NCBI GenBank assembly: GCA_965232515.1
Contig: CBDDPY010000004.1
Coordinates: 1-10,862 of the forward strand
Length of the DNA stretch: 10,862 nt
Source: Alphaproteobacteria bacterium
GTDB lineage: Bacteria > Pseudomonadota > Alphaproteobacteria > GCA-2731375
Reading direction: 5' to 3'
A model generated the notes under the pieces. That model did no database searches and was not told the origin of the DNA. It worked only from the letters and a program-made list of their open reading frames with translations. Position numbers and translations under genes: made by a program. This document shows positions 1 to 10,862 of the stretch, in pieces. The first letter of the stretch is position 1. Every line of letters begins with the position of its first letter.

Positions 1-761
1 TTTTAACCCTATCTTAGGCTTCATCTTGAAATCTCCAAGAAAGCTTTCTTGACCCTATCTTGGCCACATCTTGGGCTTCATCTTGAAATCTCTAGGCCAA
101 AGATTTCACCAAGAAAGCTTTCTTGACCCTATCTGAGCCACGTCTTGGGCTTCATCTTGTAATTATCTTGAAATCTCCAGGCTAGAAATTTCACCAAGAA
201 AGCTTTTTTAACCCTATCTTGGCCACATCTTGGGCTTCATCTTGAAATCTCTAGGCTAGAGATTTCACCAAGAAAGCTTTCTTGACCCTATCTTGGCCAC
301 ATCATGGGCTTCATCTTAAAAATCTCTAGGTTACAGGTTGCACCAAGAAAGCTTTTTTGACCCTATCTTGGCCACATCTTGGGCTTCATCTTAAAATCTC
401 TAGGTTAGGAATTTCACCAAGAAAGCTTTTTTGACCTTATCTTGGCCACATCTTGGGCTTCATCTTAAAATCTCTAGGTTAGAGATTTCACCAAGAAAGC
501 TTTTTGGACCCTATCTTGGCCACATCTTGGACTTCATCTTCAAATCTCTAGGCTAGAGATTTCACCAAGAAAGCTTTTTTGACCCTATCTTGGCCACATC
601 TTGGGCTTCATCTTGAAATCTCTAGGCTAGAGATTTTACTAAGAAAACCTTCTTGAGCCTATCTTGGCCACATCTTTAACTTCATCTTGAAATTCTAGGT
701 TAGAGATTTCACCAAGAAAGCTTTTTTGACCCTATCTTGGCCACAACTTGGGCTTCATCTT
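1..761 (+). repeat. Partial HOR copy at the left edge
   Basis: Constant offset of 9322 to the complete unit at six markers: 28/9350, 131/9453, 331/9653, 631/9953, 671/9993, 741/10063. Confidence 0.9.
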
Positions 762-2983
762 GAAATCTCTAGGCTAGAGATTTCACCAAGAAAGCTTTCT
801 TGACTCTATCTTAGCCACGTCTTGGGCTTCATCTTGAAATGATTTCGCCACAAAAGTTTTCTTGACCCTTTCTTGGCCACGTCTTGGGCTTCATCTTGAA
901 ATTTCTAGGCTAGAGATTTCACCAAGAAAGCTTTCTTGACCCTATCTTAGCCACATCTTGGGCTTCATCTTGAAATCCCTAGGCTAGAGATTTCACCAAG
1001 AAAGCTTTCTTGAGCCTATCTTGGCCACATCTTGGGCTTCATCTTGAAATCTCTAGGCTAGAGATTTCACCAAGAAAGCTTTTTTTGACCCTATCTTGGC
1101 CACATCTTGGGCTTCAGCGGAAAATGTCTAGGCTAGCGAGTCCACCAAGAAAACTTTTTTGACCCTATGTTGGCCACATCTTGGACTTCATCTTCTTGAC
1201 CCTATCTTAGCCACGTCTTGGGCATCATCTTGAAATCTCTAGGTTCAAGATTTCACCAAAAAAGCTTTTTTGATCTTCGGCTTCATCTTGAAATCTCTAG
1301 GCTAGAGATTTCACCAAGAAAGCTTTCTTGACTCTATCTTAGCCACGTCTTGGGCTTCATCTTGAAATGATTTCGCCACAAAAGTTTTCTTGACCCTTTC
1401 TTGGCCACGTCTTGGGCTTCATCTTGAAATTTCTAGGCTAGAGATTTCACCAAGAAAGCTTTCTTGACCCTATCTTAGCCATGTCTTGGGCTTCATCTTG
1501 AAACCTCTAGGCTAGAGATTTCACCAAGAAAGCCTTCTTGACCCTATCTTGGCCACATCTTGGGCTTCATCTTGAAATCTCTAGGCTAGAGATTTCACCA
1601 AGAAAGCTTTCTTGGCCACATCTTGGGCTTCATCTTGAAATCTCTAGGCTAGAGATTTTGGGCTTCATCTTGAAATCTCTAGGCTAGAGATTTCACCAAG
1701 AAAGCTGCCTTGGCCCTATCTTGGCCACATCTGGGGCTTCATCTTGAAATCTCTAGGCCAGGGATTTCACTGATAAAGCTTTCTTGAGCCCATTTGGGCC
1801 ACATCTGGGGCTTCATCTCGAATTCTCTAGGCTAGAGATTTCACCAAGAACGCTTTCTTGACCCTATCTTGACCACATCCTGAGCTTCATCTTGAAATCT
1901 CTAGGCTAGAGATTTCACCAAGAAAGCTTTCTTGAGCCTATCTTGGCAACATCTTGGGCTTCATCTTGAAATCTCTAGGCTAGAGGTTTCACCAAGAAAG
2001 CTTTCTTGACCCTATCTTGGCCACATGTTGGGCTTCGTCTCGATATCCCTAAGCTAGAGATTTCACCAAGAACGCTTTCTTGACCCTATCTTGGGTTTCA
2101 TCTTGAAATAAATCTCTAGGCTAGAGATTTCACCCAGAAAGCTTTCTTGACCCTATCTTGGCCACATCTTGGGCTTCATCTTGAAGTCTCTAGGCTAGAG
2201 TTTTCACTAAGAAAGCTTTCTTGACCCTATCTTGGCCACATCTTAGGCTTCATCTTGAAATCTCTAGGCGAGAGATTTCACCAAGAAAGCTTTCTTGACC
2301 CTATCTTGGCCACATCTTGGGCTTCATCTTGAAATCTCTAGGCTAGAGATTTCACCAAAAAAGCTTTCTTGACCCTATCTTGGCCACATCTTGGGCTTCA
2401 TCTTGAAATCTCTAGGCTAGAGATTTCACCCAGAAAGCTTTCTTGACCCTATCTTGGCCACATCTTGGGTTTCATCTTGAAATCTCTAGGCTAGAGATTT
2501 CACCAAGAACGCTTTCTTGACCCTATCTTGGCCACATCTTGGGCTTCATCTTGAAATCTCTAGGCTAGAGTTTTCACTAAGAAAGCTTTCTTGACCCTAT
2601 CTTGGCCACATCTTGGGCTTCATCTTGAAATCTCTAGGCTAGAGATTTCACCAAGAAAGCTTTCTTGATCCTATCTTGGCCACATGTTGAAATCTCTAGG
2701 CTAGAGATTTCACCAAGAAAGCTTTCTTCACCCTATCTTGGCCACATCTTGGGCTTCATCTTGAAATCTCTAGGCTAGAGATTTCACCAAGAAAGCTTTC
2801 TTGACCCTATCTTGGCCACATCTTGGGCTTCATCTTGAAATCTCTAGGCTAGAGATTTCACCAAGAAAGCTGTCTTGACCCTATCTTGGCCACATCTTGG
2901 GCTTCATCTTGAAATCTCTAAGCTGGAGATTTCACCAAGAAAGCTTTCTTGACCCTATCTTGGCCACATGTTGGGTTTCATCT

Positions 2984-3008
2984 TGAAATCTCTAGGCTAG
3001 AGATTTCA
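2984..3008. other. Palindrome 1 of the monomer (example copy): 12-bp arms around a single G; potential hairpin or cruciform
   Basis: TGAAATCTCTAG-G-CTAGAGATTTCA; the arms are exact reverse complements (11-bp stem with GGC loop). Present in most monomers. Confidence 0.95.
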
Positions 3009-3058
3009 CCAAGAAAGCTTTCTTGACCCTATCTTGGCCACATCTTGGGCTTCATCTT
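2985..3058 (+). repeat. Representative exact consensus monomer (74 bp)
   Basis: Read directly: gaaatctcta ggctagagat ttcaccaaga aagctttctt gaccctatct tggccacatc ttgggcttca tctt; 32 of 74 bases are G+C. Confidence 0.97.
3010..3025. other. Palindrome 2 of the monomer (example copy): perfect 16-bp palindrome centred on a HindIII site
   Basis: CAAGAAAGCTTTCTTG is its own reverse complement. It extends to 18 bp (CCAAG...CTTGG) in the TCTTGGCCC variants, e.g. ~3305-3322. Confidence 0.95.
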
Positions 3059-3059
3059 G
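3021..3059 (+). repeat. Internal sub-repeats of the monomer (example copy): four TCTTG at 11, 11 and 12 bp spacing
   Basis: tcttg-acccta-tcttg-gccaca-tcttg-ggcttca-tcttg. Confidence 0.9.
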
Positions 3060-5127
3060 AAATCTCTAGGCTAGAGATTTCACCAAGAAAGCTTTCTTGA
3101 CCCTATCTTGGCCACATCTTGGGCTTCATGTTGAAATCTCTAGGCTAGAGATTGAACCAAAAACGCTTTCTTGACCCTATCTTGGCCACATGTTGGGCTT
3201 CATCTCGAAATCCCTAGGCTAGAGATTGCACCAAGAACGCTTTCTTGACCCTATCTTGGCCACATCTTGGGCTTCATCTTGAAATCTCTAGGCTGGAGAT
3301 TTCACCAAGAAAGCTTTCTTGGCCCTATCTTGACCACATCCTGGGCTTCATCTTGAAATCTCTAGGCTAGAGATTTCACCCAGAAAGCTTTCTTGGCCCT
3401 ATCTTGGCCACATCTTGGGCTTCATCTTGAAATCTCTAGGCTAGAGATTTGACGAAGAAATCTTTCTTGAGCCTATCTTGGCCACATCTTGGGCTTCATC
3501 TTGAAATCTCTAGGCTAGAGATTTCACCAAGAAAGCTTTCTTGAGCCTATCTTGGCCACATCTTAGGCTTCATCTCCCCAGGCTAGAGAGTTCACCAAGA
3601 AAGCTTTCTTGGCCACATCTTGGGCTTCATCTTGAAATCTCTAGGCTAGAGATTTCACCAAGAAAGCTTTCTTGGCCCTATCTTGACCACATCCTGGGCT
3701 TCATCTTGAAATCTCTAGGCTAGAAGATATCACCAAGAAAGCTTTCTTGGCCCTATCTTGACCACATCCTGGGCTTCATCTTGAAATCTCTAGGCTAGAG
3801 ATTTCACCAAGGAAGCTTTCTTGATCCTATCTTGGCCACATCTTGGGCTTCATCTTGAAATCTCTAGGTTAAAGATTTCACCAAGAAAGCTTTCTTGACC
3901 CTATCTTGGCCACATCCTGGGCTTCATCTTGAATATTCTAGGCTAGAGATTTCACCACGAAAGCTTTCTTGACCCTATCTTGGCCACATCTTGGGCTTCA
4001 TCTTGAAATCTCTAGGTTAGAGATTTCACCAAGAAAGCTTTTTTAACCCTATCTTGGCCACGTCTTGGGCTTCATCTTGACTAGAGATTTCACCAAGAAA
4101 GCTTTCTTGACCCTATCTTGGCCACATCTTGGGCTTCATCTTGAAATCTCTAGGCTAGAGATTTCACCAAGAAAGCTTTCTTGACCCTATCTTGGCCACA
4201 TCTTGGGCTTCATCTTGAAATCTCTAGGCTAGAGAATTCACCAAGAAAGCTTTCTTGACCCTATCTTGGCCACATCTTGGGCTTCATCTTGAAATCTCTA
4301 GGCTAGAGATTTCACCAGGGAAGCTTTCTTGACCCTTTCTTGGCCACATCTTGGGCTTCATCTTGAAATCCCTAGGCTGGAGATTTCACCAAGAACGCTT
4401 TCTTGGCCACATCTTGGGCTTCATCTTGAAATCTCTAGGCTAGAGATTTCACCAAGAAAGCTTTCTTGACCCTATCTTGGCCACATCTTGGGTTTCATCT
4501 TGAAATCTCTAGGCTAGAGATTTCACCAAAAAAGCTTTCTTGACCCTATCTTGGCCACATCTTGGGCTTCATCTTGAAATCTCTAGGCTAGAGATTTCAC
4601 CAAGAAAGCTTTCTTGACCCTATCTTGGCCACATCTTGGGCTTCATCTTGAAATCTCTAGGCTGGAGATTTCACCAAGAAAGCTTTCTTGGCCCTATCTT
4701 GACCACATCCTGGGCTTCATCTTGAAATCTCTAGGCTGGAGATTTCACCCAGAAAGCTTTCTTGGCCCTATCTTGGCCACATCTTGGGCTTCATCTTGAA
4801 ATCTTTAGGCTAGAGATTTCACCAAGAAAGCTTTTTTGACCCTATCTTGGCCACATCTTGGGCTTCATCTTGAAATCTCTAGGCTAGAGATTTCGCCAAG
4901 AAAGCTTTCTTGACCCTATCTTGGCCACATCTTGGGCTTCATCTTGACTAGAGATTTCACCAAGAAATCTTTCTTGACCCTATCTTGGCCACATCTTGGG
5001 CTTCATCTTGAAATCTCTAGGCTAGAGATTTCACCAAGAAAGCTTTCTTGACCCTATCTTGGCCACATCTTGGGCTTCATCTTGAAATCTCTAGGCTAGA
5101 GAATTCACCAAGAAAGCTTTCTTGACC

Positions 5128-5667
5128 CTATCTTGGCCACATCTTGGGCTTCATCTTGAAATCTCTAGGCTAGAGATTTCACCAAGAAAGCTTTCTTGAC
5201 CCTATCTTGGCCACATCTTGGGCTTCATCTTGAAATCTCTAGGTTAGGGATTTCACCAAGAAAGCTTTCTTGAGCCTATCTTGGCCACATCTTGGGCTTC
5301 ATCTTAAAATCATCTTGAAATCTATCTCTAGGCTAGAGATTTCACCAAGAAAGCTTTTTCGAGCCTATCTTGGCCACATCTTGGGCTTCATCTTGAAATC
5401 TCTAGGCTAGAGATTTCACCAAGAAAGCTTTCTTGACCCTATCTTGGCCACATCTTGGGCTTCATCTTGAAATCTCTAGGTTAGGGATTTCACCAAGAAA
5501 GCTTTCTTGAGCCTATCTTGGCCACATCTTGGGCTTCATCTTGAAATCATCTTGAAATCTATCTCTAGGCTAGAGATTTCACCAAGAAAGCTTTTTCGAG
5601 CCTATCTTGGCCACATCTTGGGCTTCATCTTGAAATCTCTAGGCTAGAGATTTCACCAAGAAAGCTT
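5128..5667 (+). repeat. Local tandem duplication of a 237-bp trimer (3x74+15)
   Basis: ggttaggga 5242/5479, tctatctcta 5321/5558, and tttttcgagcc in both copies. Confidence 0.85.
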
Positions 5668-8466
5668 TTGACCCTATCTTGGCCACATCTTGGGCTTCAT
5701 CTGAAAATTTCTAGGCTAGAGATTTTACCAAGAAAACTTTCTTGAGCCTATCTTGGCCACATCTTGGACTTCATCTTCAAATCTCTAGGCTAGAGATTTC
5801 ACCAAGAAAGCTTTTTTGACCCTATCTTGGCCACATCTTGGGCTTCATCTTGAAATCTCTAGGTTAGAGATTTCACCAAGAAAGCTTTTTTGAGCCTATC
5901 TTGGCCACATCTTGGGCTTCATCTTGAAATCTCTAGGCTAGAGATTTCACCAAGAAAGCTTTCTTGAGCCTATCTTGGCCACATCTTGGGCTTCATCTTG
6001 AAATCTCTAGGCTGGAGATTTCACCAAGAAAGCTTTCTTGACCCTATCTTAGCCACGTCTTGGGCTTCATCTTGAAATGATTTCGCCACAAAAGTTTCTT
6101 GACCCTATCTTGGCCACATCTTGGGCTTCATCTTGAAATCTCTAGGCTAGAGATTTCACCAAGAAAGCTTTCTTGACCCTATCTTTTAGCCACGTCTTGG
6201 GCTTCATCTTGAAATCTCTAGGCTAGAGATTTCACCAAGAAAGCTTTTTTGACCCTACCTTGGCCACATCTTGGGCTTCATCTTGAAATCTCTAGGCTAG
6301 AGATTTCACCAAGAAAGCTTTCTTGAGCCTATCTTGGCCACATCTTGGGCTTCATCTTGAAATCTCTAGGTTAGAAATTTCATCAAGAAAGCTTTCTTGA
6401 CCCTATCTTGGCATCTTGGCCACATCTTGGGCTTCATCTTGAAATCTCTAGGCCAAAGATTTCACCAAGAAAGCTTTCTTGAGCCTATCTTTGCCACGTC
6501 TTGGGCTTCATCTTGAAATCTCTAGGTTAGAGATTTCACCAAGAAAGCTGCCTTGGCCCTATCTTGGCCACATCTTGGGCTTCATCTTGAAATCTCTAGG
6601 CTAGAGATTTCACCAAGAAAGCTTTCTTGACCCTATCTTGGCCACATCTTGGACTTCATCTTGAAATCTCTAGGTTAGAGATTTCATCAAGAAAGCTTTT
6701 TTTACCCTATCTTGGCCACATCTTGGGCTTCATCTTGAAATCTCTAGGCTAGAGATTTCATCAAGAAAACTTGCTTGACCCTGTCTTGGCCACATCTTTT
6801 GGGCTTCATCTTGATCTCTAGGCTAGAGATTTCACCAAGAAAGCTTTCTTGACCCTATCTTGGCCACATGTTGGGCTTCATCTCGATATCCCTAGGCTAG
6901 AGATTTCACCAAGAACGCTTTCTTGACCCTATCTTGGCCACGTCTTGGGTTTCGTCTTGAAATCTGTAGGCTTCATCTTGAAATCTCTAGGCTAGAGATT
7001 TCACCAAGAAAGCTTTCTTGGCCCTATCTTGGCCACATCTTGGGCTTCATCTTGAAGTCTCTAGGCTAGAGATTTCACCAAGAAAGCTTTTTTGACCCTA
7101 TCTTGGCCACATCTTGGGCTTCATCTTGAAATCTCTAGGCTAGAGATTTCACCAAGAAAGCTTTCTTGAGCTTATCTTGGCCACATCTTGGGCTTCATCT
7201 TGAAGCCTCTAGGCTAGAGATTTCACCAAGAAAGCTTTTTTGACCCTATCTTGGCCACATCTTGGCCTTCATCTTGAAATCATCTTGAAATCTATCTCTA
7301 GGCTAGAGATTTCACCAAGAAAGCTTTCTTGACCCTATCTTGGCCACATCTTGGGCTTCATCTTGAAATCTCTAGGTTAGAGATTTCACCAAGAAAGCTT
7401 TTTTAACCCTATCTTGGCCACATCTTGGGCTTCATCTTGAAATCTCTCGGCTAGAGATTTCACCAAGAAAGCTTTCTTGAGCCTATCTTGGCCATATCTT
7501 GGGCTTCATCTTGAAATCTCTAGGCTAGAGATTTCACCAAGAAAGCTTTTTTGACCCTATCTTGGCCACATCTTGGCCTTCATCTTGAAATCTCTAGGTT
7601 AGAGATTTCACCAAGAAAGCTTTCTTGAGTCTATGTTGGCCACATCTTGCGCTTCATCTTGAAATTTCTAGGGTAGAGATTGTGCCAAGAAAGCTTTCTT
7701 GAGCCTATCTTGGCCACATCTTGGGCTTCATCTTGATCTCTAGGCTAGAGATTTCACCAAGAAAGCTTTCTTGAGCCTATCTTGGCCACATCTTGGGCTT
7801 CATCTTGAAATTATCTTGAAATCTCCAGGCTAGAGATTTCACCAAGAAAGCTTTCTTGACCCTATCTTGGCCAACGTCTTGGGCTTCATCTTGAAATCTC
7901 TAGGCTAGAGATTTCACCAAGAAAGCTTTCTTGACCCTATCTGAGCCACGTCTTGGGCTTCATCTTGTAATTATCTTGAAATTTCTAGGCTAGAGATTTC
8001 ACCAAGAATGCTTTTTTATTCCTATCTGGGCCACATCTTGGGCTTCATCTTGATCTTTAGGCTAGAGATTTCACCAAGAAAGCTTTTTTAACCCTATCTT
8101 GGCCATATCTTGGGCTTCATCTTGATCTCTAGGCTAGAGATTTCACCAGGAAAGCTTTCTTGGGTCTATCTTGGCCACATCTTGGGCTTTAACTAAAAAT
8201 AGAGATTTCACCAAGAAAGCTTTCTTGAGCCTATCTTGGCCACATCTTGGGCTTCATCTTGAAATCTCTCGGCTAGAGATTTCACCAAGAAAGCTTTTTG
8301 ACCCTATCTTGGCCACATCTTGGGCTTCATCTTGAAATCTCTAGGTTAGAAATTTCACCGAGAAAACTTTTTTGACCCTATCTTGGCCACGTCTTGGGCA
8401 TCATCTTGAAATCTCTAGGTTAGGAATTTCACCAAGAAAGCTTTTTTGAGCCTATCTTGGCCACAT

Positions 8467-8912
8467 CTTGGGCTTCATCTTAAAATCTCTAGGTTAGGAA
8501 TTTCACCAAGAAAGTTTTTTTGAACGTATCTTGGCCACATCTTGGGCTTCATCTTGAAATCTCTAGGTTAGAGGTTGCGCCAAGAAAGCTTTTTTGACCC
8601 TATCTTGGCCACATCTTGGGCTTCATCTTGAAATCTCTAGGTTAGGGATTTCACCAAGAAAGCTTTCTTGACCCTATCTTGGCCACATCTTGGGCTTCAT
8701 CTTGAAATCTCTAGGCTAGAGATTTCACCAAGAAAGCTTTTTTAACCCTATCTTAGGCTTCATCTTGAAATCTCCAAGAAAGCTTTCTTGACCCTATCTT
8801 GGCCACATCTTGGGCTTCATCTTGAAATCTCTAGGCCAAAGATTTCACCAAGAAAGCTTTCTTGACCCTATCTGAGCCACGTCTTGGGCTTCATCTTGTA
8901 ATTATCTTGAAA
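8467..8912 (+). repeat. Partial HOR copy (end of one unit plus start of the next)
   Basis: Constant offset of 1602 to 10069-10514: gaggttgcgc 8571/10173, ttttaaccctatcttaggc 8740/10342, gaaatctccaag 8767/10369. Confidence 0.85.
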
Positions 8913-9349
8913 TTTCTAGGCTAGAGATTTCACCAAGAATGCTTTTTTATTCCTATCTGGGCCACATCTTGGGCTTCATCTTGATCTTTAGGCTAGAGAT
9001 TTCACCAAGAAAGCTTTTTTAACCCTATCTTGGCCATATCTTGGGCTTCATCTTGATCTCTAGGCTAGAGATTTCACCAGGAAAGCTTTCTTGGGTCTAT
9101 CTTGGCCACATCTTGGGCTTTATCTTGAAATCTCTAGGCTAGAGATTTCACCAAGAAAGCTTTCTTGAGCCTATCTTGGCCACATCTTGGGCTTCATCTT
9201 GAAATCTCTAGGCTAGAGATTTCACCAAGAAAGCTTTCTTGACCCTATCTTGGCCACATCTTGGGCTTCATCTTCAAAATCTCTAGGTTACAGGTTGCAC
9301 CAAGAAAGCTTTTTTGACCCTATCTTGGCCACATCTTGGGCTTCATCTT

Positions 9350-10368
9350 GAAATCTCCAAGAAAGCTTTTTGGACCCTATCTTGGCCACATCTTGGGCTT
9401 CATCTTGAAATCTCTAGGCCAAAGATTTCACCAAGAAAACTTTCTTGACCCTATCTGAGCCACGTCTTGGGCTTCATCTTGTAATTATCTTGAAATCTCC
9501 AGGCTAGAGATTTCACCAAGAAAGCTTCTTTAACCCTATCTTGGCCACATCTTGGGCTTCATCTTGAAATCTCTAGGCTAGAGATTTCATCAAGAAAGCT
9601 TTCTTGACCCTATCTTGGCCACATCTTGGGCTTCATCTTCAAAATCTCTAGGTTACAGGTTGCACCAAGAAAGCTTTTTTGACCCTATCTTGGCCACATC
9701 TTGGGCTTCATCTTAAAATCTCTAGGTTAGGAATTTCACCAAGAAAGCTTTTTTGACCTTATCTTGGCCACATCTTGGGCTTCATCTTAAAATCTCTAGG
9801 TTAGAGATTTCACCAAGAAAGCTTTTTGGACCCTATCTTGGCCACATCTTGGACTTCATCTTCAAATCTCTAGGCTAGAGATTTCACCAAGAAAGCTTTT
9901 TTGACCCTATCTTGGCCACATCTTGGGCTTCATCTTGAAATCTCTAGGCTAGAGATTTTACTAAGAAAACCTTCTTGAGCCTCTCTTGGCCACATCTTTA
10001 ACTTCATCTTGAAATTCTAGGTTAGAGATTTCACCAAGAAAGCTTTTTTAACCCTATCTTGGCCACAACTTGGGCTTCATCTTAAAATCTCTAGGTTAGG
10101 AATTTCACCAAGAAAGTTTTTTTGACCCTATCTTGGCCACATCTTGGGCTTCATCTTGAAATCTCTAGGTTAGAGGTTGCGCCAAGAAAGCTTTTTTGAC
10201 CCTATCTTGGCCACATCTTGGGCTTCATCTTGAAATCTCTAGGTTAGAGATTTCACCAAGAAAGCTTTCTTGACCCTATCTTGGCCACATCTTGGGCTTC
10301 ATCTTGAAATCTCTAGGCTAGAGATTTCACCAAGAAAGCTTTTTTAACCCTATCTTAGGCTTCATCTT
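9350..10368 (+). repeat. Complete 14-monomer higher-order repeat unit (1019 bp)
   Basis: Ordered diagnostic variants (gaaatctccaag, ggccaaag, ctgagccacg, gtaattatcttg, ttacaggttgcac, ggttaggaa, gaccttatc, tttggacc) recur 1019-1020 bp downstream (9350/10369; 9653/10673). I counted 14 monomer starts, and 14x74-17-11+11+1-1=1019. Confidence 0.9.
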
Positions 10369-10862
10369 GAAATCTCCAAGAAAGCTTTCTTGACCCTATC
10401 TTGGCCACATCTTGGGCTTCATCTTGAAATCTCTAGGCCAAAGATTTCACCAAGAAAACTTTCTTGACCCTATCTGAGCCACGTCTTGGGCTTCATCTTG
10501 TAATTATCTTGAAATCTCCAGGCTAGAAATTTCACCAAGAAAGCTCTTTTTAACCCTATCTTGGCCACATCTTGGGCTTCATCTTGAAATCTCTAGGCTA
10601 GAGATTTCACCAAGAAAGCTTTCTTGGCCCTATCTTGGCCACATCATGGGCTTCATCTTAAAAATCTCTAGGTTACAGGTTGCACCAAGAAAGCTTTTTT
10701 GACCCTATCTTGGCCACATCTTGGGCTTCATCTTGAAATCTCTAGGTTAGGAATTTCACCAAGAAAGCTTTTTTGACCTTATCTTGGCCACATCTTGGGC
10801 TTCATCTTAAAATCTCTAGGTTAGAGATTTCACCAAGAAAGCTTTTTGGACCCGATCTTGGC
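10369..10862 (+). repeat. Next HOR copy, truncated by the window end
   Basis: Same order of variants as 9350-9842 and 28-520. Confidence 0.9.

What the first reader, a model, noticed from the sequence alone, without database searches (positions are those of the whole stretch)
747..8481. A 7,720-bp block sits exactly in register inside the 1019-bp HOR
Seen: the left HOR copy follows the intact unit up to ccacaacttgggcttcatctt (741-761 = 10063-10083) and then departs. The HOR resumes at 8482 with exactly the bases that come next in the intact unit (aaaatctctaggttaggaatttcaccaagaaagtttt = 10084 onward). Joining 761 to 8482 rebuilds the intact HOR, with a 15-bp crossover window cttgggcttcatctt (747-761 / 8467-8481). 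Inference: either a ~105-monomer segment, such as an extrachromosomal satellite circle, integrated by one homologous crossover, or the 1019-bp HOR arose by deleting this 7,720-bp block from an 8,739-bp ancestral unit. Either way it would capture an HOR being formed or interrupted. The 15 bp is ordinary consensus sequence, so it is not evidence of a target-site duplication.
Basis: partly seen in the sequence, partly recalled or inferred. Interest (0 to 1): 0.7.

Follow-up and report, generated by a model that had tools for sequence, protein, structure and literature searches.

The report
Nested satellite repeat, not an insertion
The window is a stray piece of a eukaryote's 74-base satellite DNA filed with a bacterial genome, and the "inserted block" is just the rest of a larger repeating unit that also holds a short run of 1019-base repeats, which is an ordinary pattern for satellite DNA.

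Summary
The left copy follows the intact 1019-bp unit up to 761. The unit resumes at 8482. Both breakpoints fall in the same 15-bp stretch of the unit.

The context changes what this means. The window is a whole 10,862-bp contig (GC 42%) in a 4-contig assembly whose chromosome has GC 65.5%. It is eukaryotic 74-bp satellite DNA, and two unrelated bacterial MAG records also hold it as whole contigs.

The window starts and ends inside the same 1019-bp unit: 1-520 matches 10342-10862 at 99.0%. It therefore covers about 1.05 turns of a 10,341-bp super-unit, made of a 2.6-kb run of 1019-bp units plus the 7.7-kb block.

A second contig (L009) shows the same order: block end, run of units, block start. 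It carries the same junctions, and the right junction occurs twice.

Any run made by tandem duplication begins and ends in register, so no insertion is needed. The unit copies differ more from each other (98.7%) than the two contigs do (99.5%), so this is not a repeat caught in formation. Which junction came first is unresolved. This is ordinary nested satellite architecture and of low interest.

The parts
1..761 (+). Tail of a run of 1019-bp units (unit phase 1-761). The contig starts here.
   Evidence: 1-204 = 10342-10545 (99.5%), 205-520 = 10547-10862 (99.05%), 51-773 = 9373-10095 (98.76%), 1-174 = 8740-8913 (100%). In L009(rc) this stretch follows directly on the equivalent of window 9984-10341.
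747..761 (+). Exchange window of the unit-to-block junction (S|B)
   Evidence: Last unit-specific base is at 746 and the first difference is at 762. The 41-mer 742-782 is found exactly once in L009(rc), at 2927.
762..8481 (+). The 7,720-bp block: about 105 monomers of the same 74-bp satellite. Most are close to consensus, with irregular monomers and local duplications.
   Evidence: No ORF of 80 aa or more. In L009(rc) the same block is 2,723 bp long: window 762-797 and 1143-2764 at its start and 8018-8481 at its end are colinear, window 798-1142 is replaced by 256 other bases, and the core 2765-8017 is replaced by about 330 bp.
751..1082 (+). Copy of 1279-1610 (offset 528), younger than the S|B junction
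   Evidence: 751-953 = 1279-1481 at 100%. 751-1082 = 1279-1610 at 98.2%. L009(rc) has the S|B junction but departs from the window after 797.
7877..8191 (+). Stretch at the block's right end that is copied into the variant unit at 8808-9122 (offset 931)
   Evidence: 7909-8191 = 8840-9122 at 100%. 7877-8191 = 8808-9122 at 99.4%.
8467..8481 (+). Exchange window of the block-to-unit junction (B|S)
   Evidence: Last difference from the intact unit is at 8466. The junction occurs twice in L009(rc), at 548 and 5670, with G in place of the window's A at 8482.
8482..8739 (+). Start of the next run of units (unit phase 762-1019)
   Evidence: 8482-8913 vs 10084-10515: 4 differences in 432 columns.
8740..9322 (+). 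Short mosaic variant unit (583 bp): unit phase 1-174, then a copy of block 7983-8191, then unit phase 213-400
   Evidence: 1-174 = 8740-8913 (100%), 7909-8191 = 8840-9122 (100%), 9170-9357 = 9535-9722 (98.9%) and = 213-400 (98.4%).
9323..10341 (+). The one intact 1019-bp unit (about 14 monomers). It holds the only intact unit-to-unit junction, at 10083|10084.
   Evidence: Offsets of 1019/1020 to 10342-10862 and 9322 to 1-773. The S|S 41-mer occurs once in the window, at 10064.
10342..10862 (+). Last unit of the run (phase 1-520), cut by the contig end
   Evidence: 1-520 vs 10342-10862: 5 differences in 521 columns. The window is all of contig C4.
5127..5668 (+). Example of a local duplication inside the block (offset 237). 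Another is 4046-4317 = 4913-5184 (offset 867).
   Evidence: 5127-5431 = 5364-5668 at 99.7%. 4046-4317 = 4913-5184 at 99.3%.

Best explanation
The window is a piece of a eukaryotic 74-bp satellite array that was filed with a bacterial genome. The array is repeated on nested levels. The levels are monomers of 74 bp; a 1019-bp unit of about 14 monomers present as a short run (2.4-2.6 kb, about 2.6 units, one of them a mosaic variant); and a super-unit made of that run plus a 7.7-kb stretch of more uniform monomers, 10,341 bp in total. The contig covers about 1.05 super-units. It starts in the last unit of one run and ends in the last unit of the next. Read linearly, this looks like 'a block sitting in register inside the HOR'. 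The register follows from how tandem duplication works. If a segment S in an ancestral order L-S-R is duplicated by unequal exchange between monomers 14 apart, the result is L-S-S-R. The run starts with the first base of S and ends with its last base, so joining the end of one run to the start of the next always rebuilds the S|S junction. Shown here: the breakpoints, the end-to-end match of the contig, the same order and junctions in a second contig, and the relative divergences. Inferred: the mechanism (unequal sister-chromatid or homologue exchange and gene conversion between monomers), later spread of the whole super-unit, and later length changes of the block by exchange within its uniform core (7.7 kb here, 2.7 kb in L009).
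For: Context: the window is G000:C4:1-10862, a whole contig. Its GC is 42.4% against 65.5% for the 7.33-Mb chromosome, and the satellite is found only on C4. It has no ORF of 80 aa or more. The same satellite forms whole contigs in two other MAG records of unrelated bacteria (the 12 rows are 2 contigs). It also lies beside ORFs with endonuclease and reverse-transcriptase domains in metagenome contigs. Its word depth in 4 of 4 laid runs is 2e5 to 3.5e6 in consensus bins. Periodicity: 1-520 = 10342-10862, with 5 differences in 521 columns. Second contig, L009 reverse-complemented: the order is window 8295-8523 (B|S), 8527-9125, 9140-9369, 9373-9718, 9984-10245 (100%), 10249-10545, 1-797 (S|B), [256 other bases], 1143-2764, [about 330 bp], 8018-8523 (B|S again). 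The S|B and S|S 41-mers are each present exactly once. The run is 2,399 bp and the two B|S junctions are 5,122 bp apart. Age: the window and L009 agree at 99.48% (30 differences in 5,748 columns). The 1019-bp unit copies within the window agree at 98.74% (30 in 2,377). Patchwork elsewhere: duplications at offsets 237, 365, 528, 867, 931 and 1602. The third contig also has a 2.5-kb duplication 13,965 bp apart.
Against: The window holds only 1.05 super-units, and no long read was seen. The end-to-end match is 99.0%, barely better than the match of 17-761 to the intact unit (98.66%), so adjacency of super-units is inferred from L009 and not seen twice in the window. L009 has the same record series and contig naming as the window's likely pipeline, so it may not be a fully independent sample or method. 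In L009 the block is 2.7 kb and the second B|S junction is followed by a different order (8580-8735, then 6983-7832), so the super-unit is not uniform. The listed pieces of the laid contigs showed none bridging 748-775 (the table was cut: 32 shown, 19,140 not shown). A scan of metagenome contigs for the junction word found 0. The order of events (duplication or deletion versus insertion) cannot be read from the junction monomers, because each is a clean left-half plus right-half combination of the others.
Confidence: 0.75

Rival explanations
1. A discrete insertion: a 7.7-kb piece of the same satellite, for example an excised circle, integrated by one homologous crossover into a continuous run of 1019-bp units. 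The interrupted arrangement was then copied.
For: Both breakpoints lie in the same 15-bp stretch of the unit. The unit-specific monomer 639-711 is abundant in run X15 (bins 641-694: about 5-6e4) but 0 to 904 in X16, X4 and X1, whereas block variants 1089-1301 occur in all four. Block-type and unit-type sequence therefore have partly separate histories. The junction monomers are symmetric, so this direction is not excluded.
Against: The register is equally produced by plain tandem duplication. Both junctions recur in L009, B|S twice. The unit copies are older than the split between the two contigs. The block's right end (7877-8481) already holds unit-related monomers and shares a 283-bp stretch at 100% with the variant unit, so the block is not foreign to the run. 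No circle junction or empty site was seen.
Confidence: 0.1
2. An assembly artefact: the contig is a collapsed or cyclic path through a repeat graph, or a consensus mixed from several copies, so the long-range order (and therefore the 'block') need not exist on one molecule.
For: The window is a whole small contig that begins and ends in the repeat. Its ends match over 521 bp. Patches of 174, 203 and 283 bp are 100% identical in a background of about 1% divergence, as polishing with misplaced reads could produce. All three satellite contigs sit in bacterial bins.
Against: A separately assembled contig has the same junction words and the same order over 5.7 kb at 99.48% while differing by large deletions. 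Logan contigs of 4 runs match the irregular stretch 1089-1301, three of them without any difference and X4 with one other letter.
Confidence: 0.1
3. The contig is a real extrachromosomal circle of satellite DNA of 10,341 bp, written out with a 521-bp overlap.
For: The start-to-end match runs from the first to the last base of the contig. The DNA travelled with bacterial preparations in three assemblies.
Against: The overlap is only 99.0% identical. Any contig longer than one period of a tandem super-repeat shows the same end match. The other two contigs do not close in this way (L009 31-248 = 6950-7167; the 20.4-kb contig's start matches 13969-16434, not its end). The word depths fit a very large chromosomal satellite.
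Confidence: 0.05

Closest known systems
Higher-order repeat (HOR) arrays of centromeric satellites, for example primate alpha satellite. They are reviewed in PMC8122249 and PMC9859433, of which I saw only the search listing and the start of the abstract. That HOR variants arise by exchanges in monomer register is recalled, not read here.
   Same: Head-to-tail monomers. A multi-monomer unit whose copies (98.7%) are far more alike than the monomers within it (median 0.878). Breakpoints in monomer register inside consensus sequence.
   Different: The monomer is 74 bp. Only about 2.6 units form a 2.4-2.6-kb run, rather than a long array. The run is itself one part of a larger unit. The source organism and chromosomal position are unknown.
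Cascading HORs / superHORs described in ape alpha satellite (PMC12428378, PMC11050224, PMC11276891; search listing and start of abstract only)
   Same: A large repeat unit that contains repeated sub-blocks of monomers, so that periodicities are nested.
   Different: I could see only 1.05 copies of the large unit in the window, and a shorter variant (5,122 bp between equal junctions) in a second contig. Regular tandem repetition of the large unit is not shown.
Satellites that arise from tandem repeats inside retrotransposons (PMC7004042; search listing and start of abstract only)
   Same: Short arrays of the same 74-bp repeat (120-750 bp) lie a few hundred bases upstream of ORFs with endonuclease and reverse-transcriptase domains, in the same orientation, in two element copies only 84% alike.
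   Different: The elements here look LINE-like. Whether the short array is part of the element or the element's preferred target was not settled.
Extrachromosomal circular DNA from satellite arrays and its reintegration (recalled from general knowledge; no paper read here)
   Same: It would give an insert made of whole monomers, with both junctions in consensus sequence and in register.
   Different: No circle junction, no circle-enriched data and no empty allele were seen. Tandem duplication explains the same pattern.

Membership tests
Satellite DNA with higher-order repeat organisation | Long head-to-tail array of one monomer family | tested here: met
   TRF: period 74, 146.4 copies over 35-10862. 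Wrap-around alignment gives 149 monomers, 99 of them exactly 74 bp.
Satellite DNA with higher-order repeat organisation | Copies of the multi-monomer unit are much more alike than the monomers within a unit | tested here: met
   Unit copies agree at 98.74% (30 differences in 2,377 columns), against a median monomer-to-monomer identity of 0.878.
Satellite DNA with higher-order repeat organisation | The unit is repeated many times in an uninterrupted array | tested here: not met
   There is one intact unit (9323-10341) plus partial or mosaic copies. The run is 2,621 bp in the window when wrapped and 2,399 bp in L009.
Nested (cascading / super-) HOR | The large unit contains repeated sub-blocks | tested here: met
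   The run of 1019-bp units and several local duplications lie inside the 10,341-bp span.
Nested (cascading / super-) HOR | The large unit is itself repeated in tandem | tested here: inconclusive
   The window shows 1.05 units (1-520 = 10342-10862). L009 shows the same order, with the B|S junction twice, 5,122 bp apart, but with a different continuation the second time.
Insertion of a mobile element | A target-site duplication specific to the two flanks | tested here: not met
   The shared 15-mer occurs 105 times in the window.
Insertion of a mobile element | The insert carries its own sequence (genes, termini) | tested here: not met
   The block is the same 74-bp satellite throughout. No ORF of 80 aa or more. 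No Rfam match.
Integration of a satellite circle | Circle junction reads, or an allele without the block at this place | not testable with these tools
   Only Logan contigs of short length could be laid. The intact junction at 10083|10084 belongs to a neighbouring unit and is not an empty allele.
DNA of the bacterium whose assembly holds the contig | Composition and occurrence like the rest of that genome | tested here: not met
   GC is 42.4% against 65.5%, and the satellite is on C4 only. The same satellite is in MAG records of two unrelated bacteria and beside LINE-like ORFs.

The most novel reading that the evidence does not exclude
The contig is a real 10,341-bp extrachromosomal circle of satellite DNA (its ends overlap by 521 bp) that co-purified with bacterial DNA.
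Probability: 0.05. Interest if true: 0.55.

Novelty: new member of a known kind. Interest (0 to 1): 0.15.

Why it matters
There are two practical points. First, a small contig of eukaryotic satellite DNA is filed inside a near-complete bacterial assembly, and the same satellite sits in two other public MAG records. These are contaminants that should be flagged, and they say nothing about bacterial biology. Second, an 'insertion in register' in a tandem array is what any window shows when it spans from one locally amplified run to the next. It should not be read as an insertion unless a longer context excludes periodicity. The satellite itself has 74-bp monomers with two dyad symmetries, nested periodicities, and short arrays beside LINE-like elements. 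It may be undescribed, but it belongs to a well-known class.

Tried and rejected
1. The left junction as a by-product of the 528-bp-offset duplication (751-1082 = 1279-1610). I rejected this because L009 has the exact S|B 41-mer but departs from the window after 797. The duplication is therefore younger, and its apparent left edge at 751 is only where similarity must stop.

2. Polarity from junction monomers. Monomers 10 (S|B), 115 (B|S) and 137 (S|S) are clean left-half and right-half combinations of one another. The fourth combination is an ordinary consensus-type monomer (for example 5876-5949). No direction can be read from them.

3. Polarity from the unit's internal 369-bp paralogy (341-636 against 10032-10327, about 96.5%). 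The diagnostic bases start only at the junction itself, so this gives nothing.

The part 560-1340 was laid. Among the 32 listed pieces, none bridged 748-775, and 19,140 pieces were not shown. This says nothing either way about the junction.

5. A scan of metagenome contigs for the unit-specific junction word found 0 matches.

6. Naming the source organism. Two atlas look-ups gave only eukaryote-type neighbours. Run organisms are coded, apart from one 'coral metagenome' holding a small share (0.12) that I did not lay.

7. Rfam found no family in the window or in C3.

9. A search for papers on satellite DNA of Symbiodiniaceae found none. All 15 listed rows had 0 occurrences of that word. This was one search only and is no proof of absence.
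Full report
**What is in the window.**
The whole window is one tandem array of a 74-bp monomer. TRF gives period 74 and 146.4 copies over 35-10862. A wrap-around alignment to the consensus gives 149 monomers, 99 of them exactly 74 bp. The median monomer-to-monomer identity is 0.878. There is no ORF of 80 aa or more and no Rfam match.

**The observation.**
In a base-level alignment to the intact unit (9323-10341), window 600-761 differs at 2 positions, and differences become dense from 762 onward. On the other side, differences are dense up to 8466, and 8467-8760 differs at only 3 positions. Both breakpoints therefore fall within intact-unit positions 10069-10083. The two breakpoints are in register, and this is unlikely to be chance. 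By my estimate the odds are about 15 in 1019 for free breakpoints, or about 1 in 14 if exchanges are locked to monomer phase.

- The window is the whole of contig C4 (10,862 bp) of a four-contig assembly.
- C2 (7.33 Mb) and C1 (38 kb) have GC of 65.5% and 65.0%. C4 has 42.4% and C3 (5.5 kb) has 45.8%. The satellite occurs only on C4.
- The same satellite forms whole contigs in two other MAG records of unrelated bacteria: CBDDPX010000003.1 (7,167 bp) and CBDDPL010000005.1 (20,397 bp) (its 12 rows are these 2 contigs).
- In metagenome contigs, short arrays of the satellite lie beside long ORFs with endonuclease and reverse-transcriptase domains.
- Of 22 listed runs, 20 hold part of the window, from 10 studies. 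The organisms are coded, except for one 'coral metagenome' with a small share that I did not lay.
- In all 4 laid runs, the summed word depth in consensus bins is 2e5 to 3.5e6.
- This is abundant eukaryotic satellite DNA that was binned with bacteria. I could not name the source organism.

**The contig begins and ends in the same unit.**
Window 1-520 matches 10342-10862 with 5 differences in 521 columns. The sequence therefore recurs after 10,341 bp. That length equals the run of 1019-bp units (8482-10341 plus 1-761, 2,621 bp) plus the block (7,720 bp). On this reading, the 'left HOR copy' is the tail of one run and the right copies belong to the next run.

**A second contig confirms the order.**
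L009, reverse-complemented, is colinear with the window at 99.48% (30 differences in 5,748 columns). Its order, in window coordinates, is:
1. 8295-8523, which crosses the B|S junction
2. 8527-9125
3. 9140-9369
4. 9373-9718
5. 9984-10245 (100%)
6. 10249-10545
7. 1-797, which crosses the S|B junction
8. 256 bases in place of window 798-1142
9. 1143-2764
10. about 330 bp of consensus-type monomers
11. 8018-8523, which crosses B|S a second time

So in another copy, the sequence before window position 1 is the run of units, exactly as at the window's right end. The S|B and S|S 41-mers are each present exactly once in L009. The B|S junction is present twice, with G where the window has A at 8482, which widens the exchange window there to 8467-8493. 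The run is 2,399 bp in L009, the block is only 2,723 bp, and the two B|S junctions are 5,122 bp apart.

**Why the register needs no insertion.**
If a segment S within an order L-S-R is duplicated in tandem by unequal exchange, the result is L-S-S-R. The run begins with the first base of S and ends with its last. Joining the end of one run to the start of another must rebuild the S|S junction. Any window that reaches from one such run to the next shows 'a block in register inside the repeat'. It is the same exchange seen from the other side.

**Not caught in the act.**
- The 1019-bp unit copies within the window agree at 98.74% (30 differences in 2,377 columns). The window and L009 agree at 99.48%. 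The duplication of the unit is therefore older than the split between these two copies of the whole arrangement.
- The run itself is reworked. The unit at 8740-9322 is a 583-bp mosaic of unit phase 1-174, a 100% copy of block 7983-8191, and unit phase 213-400.
- The block's right end (7757-8481) already carries unit-related monomers.
- Duplications at offsets 237, 365, 528, 867, 931 and 1602 are scattered over the window.
- The 20.4-kb contig has its own 2.5-kb duplication 13,965 bp apart.
- The picture is a patchwork built by repeated exchange and conversion between monomers.

**What stays open.**
- The direction of the founding event cannot be read from the junction monomers. Each is a clean combination of halves of the others.
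- No long read was available, and the window holds only 1.05 super-units.
- L009 may come from the same pipeline, so it is not a fully independent check.
- Its second B|S junction is followed by a different order (8580-8735, then 6983-7832), so the super-unit is not uniform.
- The pieces listed for the laid runs did not include one bridging 748-775, but only 32 of 19,172 pieces were shown.
- A scan of metagenome contigs for the junction word found nothing.
- Patches of 174, 203 and 283 bp at 100% identity in a background of about 1% divergence could be recent conversion or a polishing artefact.

**Read evidence.**
- Logan contigs of three of the four laid runs match the irregular stretch 1089-1301 without any difference, and the fourth does so with one other letter:
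  - X1: 1089-1168, 1139-1222 and 1216-1301
  - X16: 1091-1222 and 1216-1301
  - X15: 1112-1168 and 1236-1293
  - X4: 1216-1308, with one other letter
- That part of the block is therefore multi-copy and shared between samples.
- The unit-specific monomer 639-711 behaves differently. For bins 641-667 and 668-694, depths are 53,848 and 60,322 in X15, but 904 and 0 in X16, 0 and 0 in X4, and 49 and 0 in X1.
- In X15, the ratio of this depth to the consensus bins is about 1 to 58. That is near what the window itself would give (2 of 149 monomers). This is a rough inference that much of the satellite in that sample is built like this window.

**Comparison with what is known.**
The closest kinds are HOR arrays of centromeric satellites and the nested 'cascading' or 'super' HORs reported in apes. 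For these I saw only search listings and the starts of abstracts. The features met here are tandem monomers and unit copies more alike than the monomers within them. A long uninterrupted array of the unit is not met. Tandem repetition of the large unit is inconclusive. Insertion by a mobile element fails on both features tested. Circle integration could not be tested.

**Verdict.**
This is an ordinary nested satellite architecture on a contaminant contig. It is a new member of a known kind and of low interest.

Noticed in passing
L018 (G000:C3:1-5516): The assembly's other small contig is also non-bacterial in look. It has GC 45.8% and a 242-bp tandem repeat (8.2 copies, 99%) with nested 53-bp repeats over 1-1987, followed by about 3.5 kb without a convincing gene. 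It is probably a second contaminant.
   Followed up: partly
L009 (CBDDPX010000003.1, 7,167 bp); L013/L014 (CBDDPL010000005.1, 20,397 bp): Two public MAG records of unrelated bacteria (titled Woeseiaceae and Denitrobaculum) each contain a contig made wholly of this eukaryotic satellite. This is a shared contamination pattern worth flagging to curators.
   Followed up: partly
L022/L025, L023, L021/L024: Short arrays of the 74-bp repeat (120-750 bp) lie about 370-550 bp upstream of long ORFs with endonuclease (PF03372) and reverse-transcriptase (PF00078) domains, in the same orientation. This holds for two element copies only 84% alike. The repeat may be a 5' tandem-repeat region of a LINE-like element, and the satellite an expansion of it. 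Alternatively, the element may target the satellite.
   Followed up: partly
window 4093-4240 (any consensus monomer): Each monomer carries two dyad symmetries: CAAGAAAGCTTTCTTG, and GAAATCTCTAG..CTAGAGATTTC. A dimer folds as single-stranded DNA at -33.3 kcal/mol, z = -6.4 against shuffles. The few minus-strand self-hits come from these.
   Followed up: partly
window 639-711 and 9961-10033: This divergent unit-specific monomer is abundant in run X15 but nearly absent from X16, X4 and X1. X1 carries the same organism code as X15. The 1019-bp unit may therefore be specific to one lineage or strain.
   Followed up: no
window 1-174 / 8740-8913; 751-953 / 1279-1481; 7909-8191 / 8840-9122: Three patches are 100% identical while neighbouring repeat copies differ by about 1%. 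This could be very recent gene conversion or homogenisation by assembly polishing.
   Followed up: no
L013/L014 joined, reverse complement: 1-2468 and 13969-16434: The 20.4-kb satellite contig has a 2.5-kb stretch repeated 13,965 bp away at 99.2-99.7%. It has none of the window's 1019-bp unit junction words.
   Followed up: partly
L028 (Ga0126337_10047777, 2,895 bp): A 1.5-kb array of the repeat (about 92% to consensus) adjoins AT-rich sequence (locus GC 37%). Its ORFs are unlike those of the LINE-like loci.
   Followed up: no
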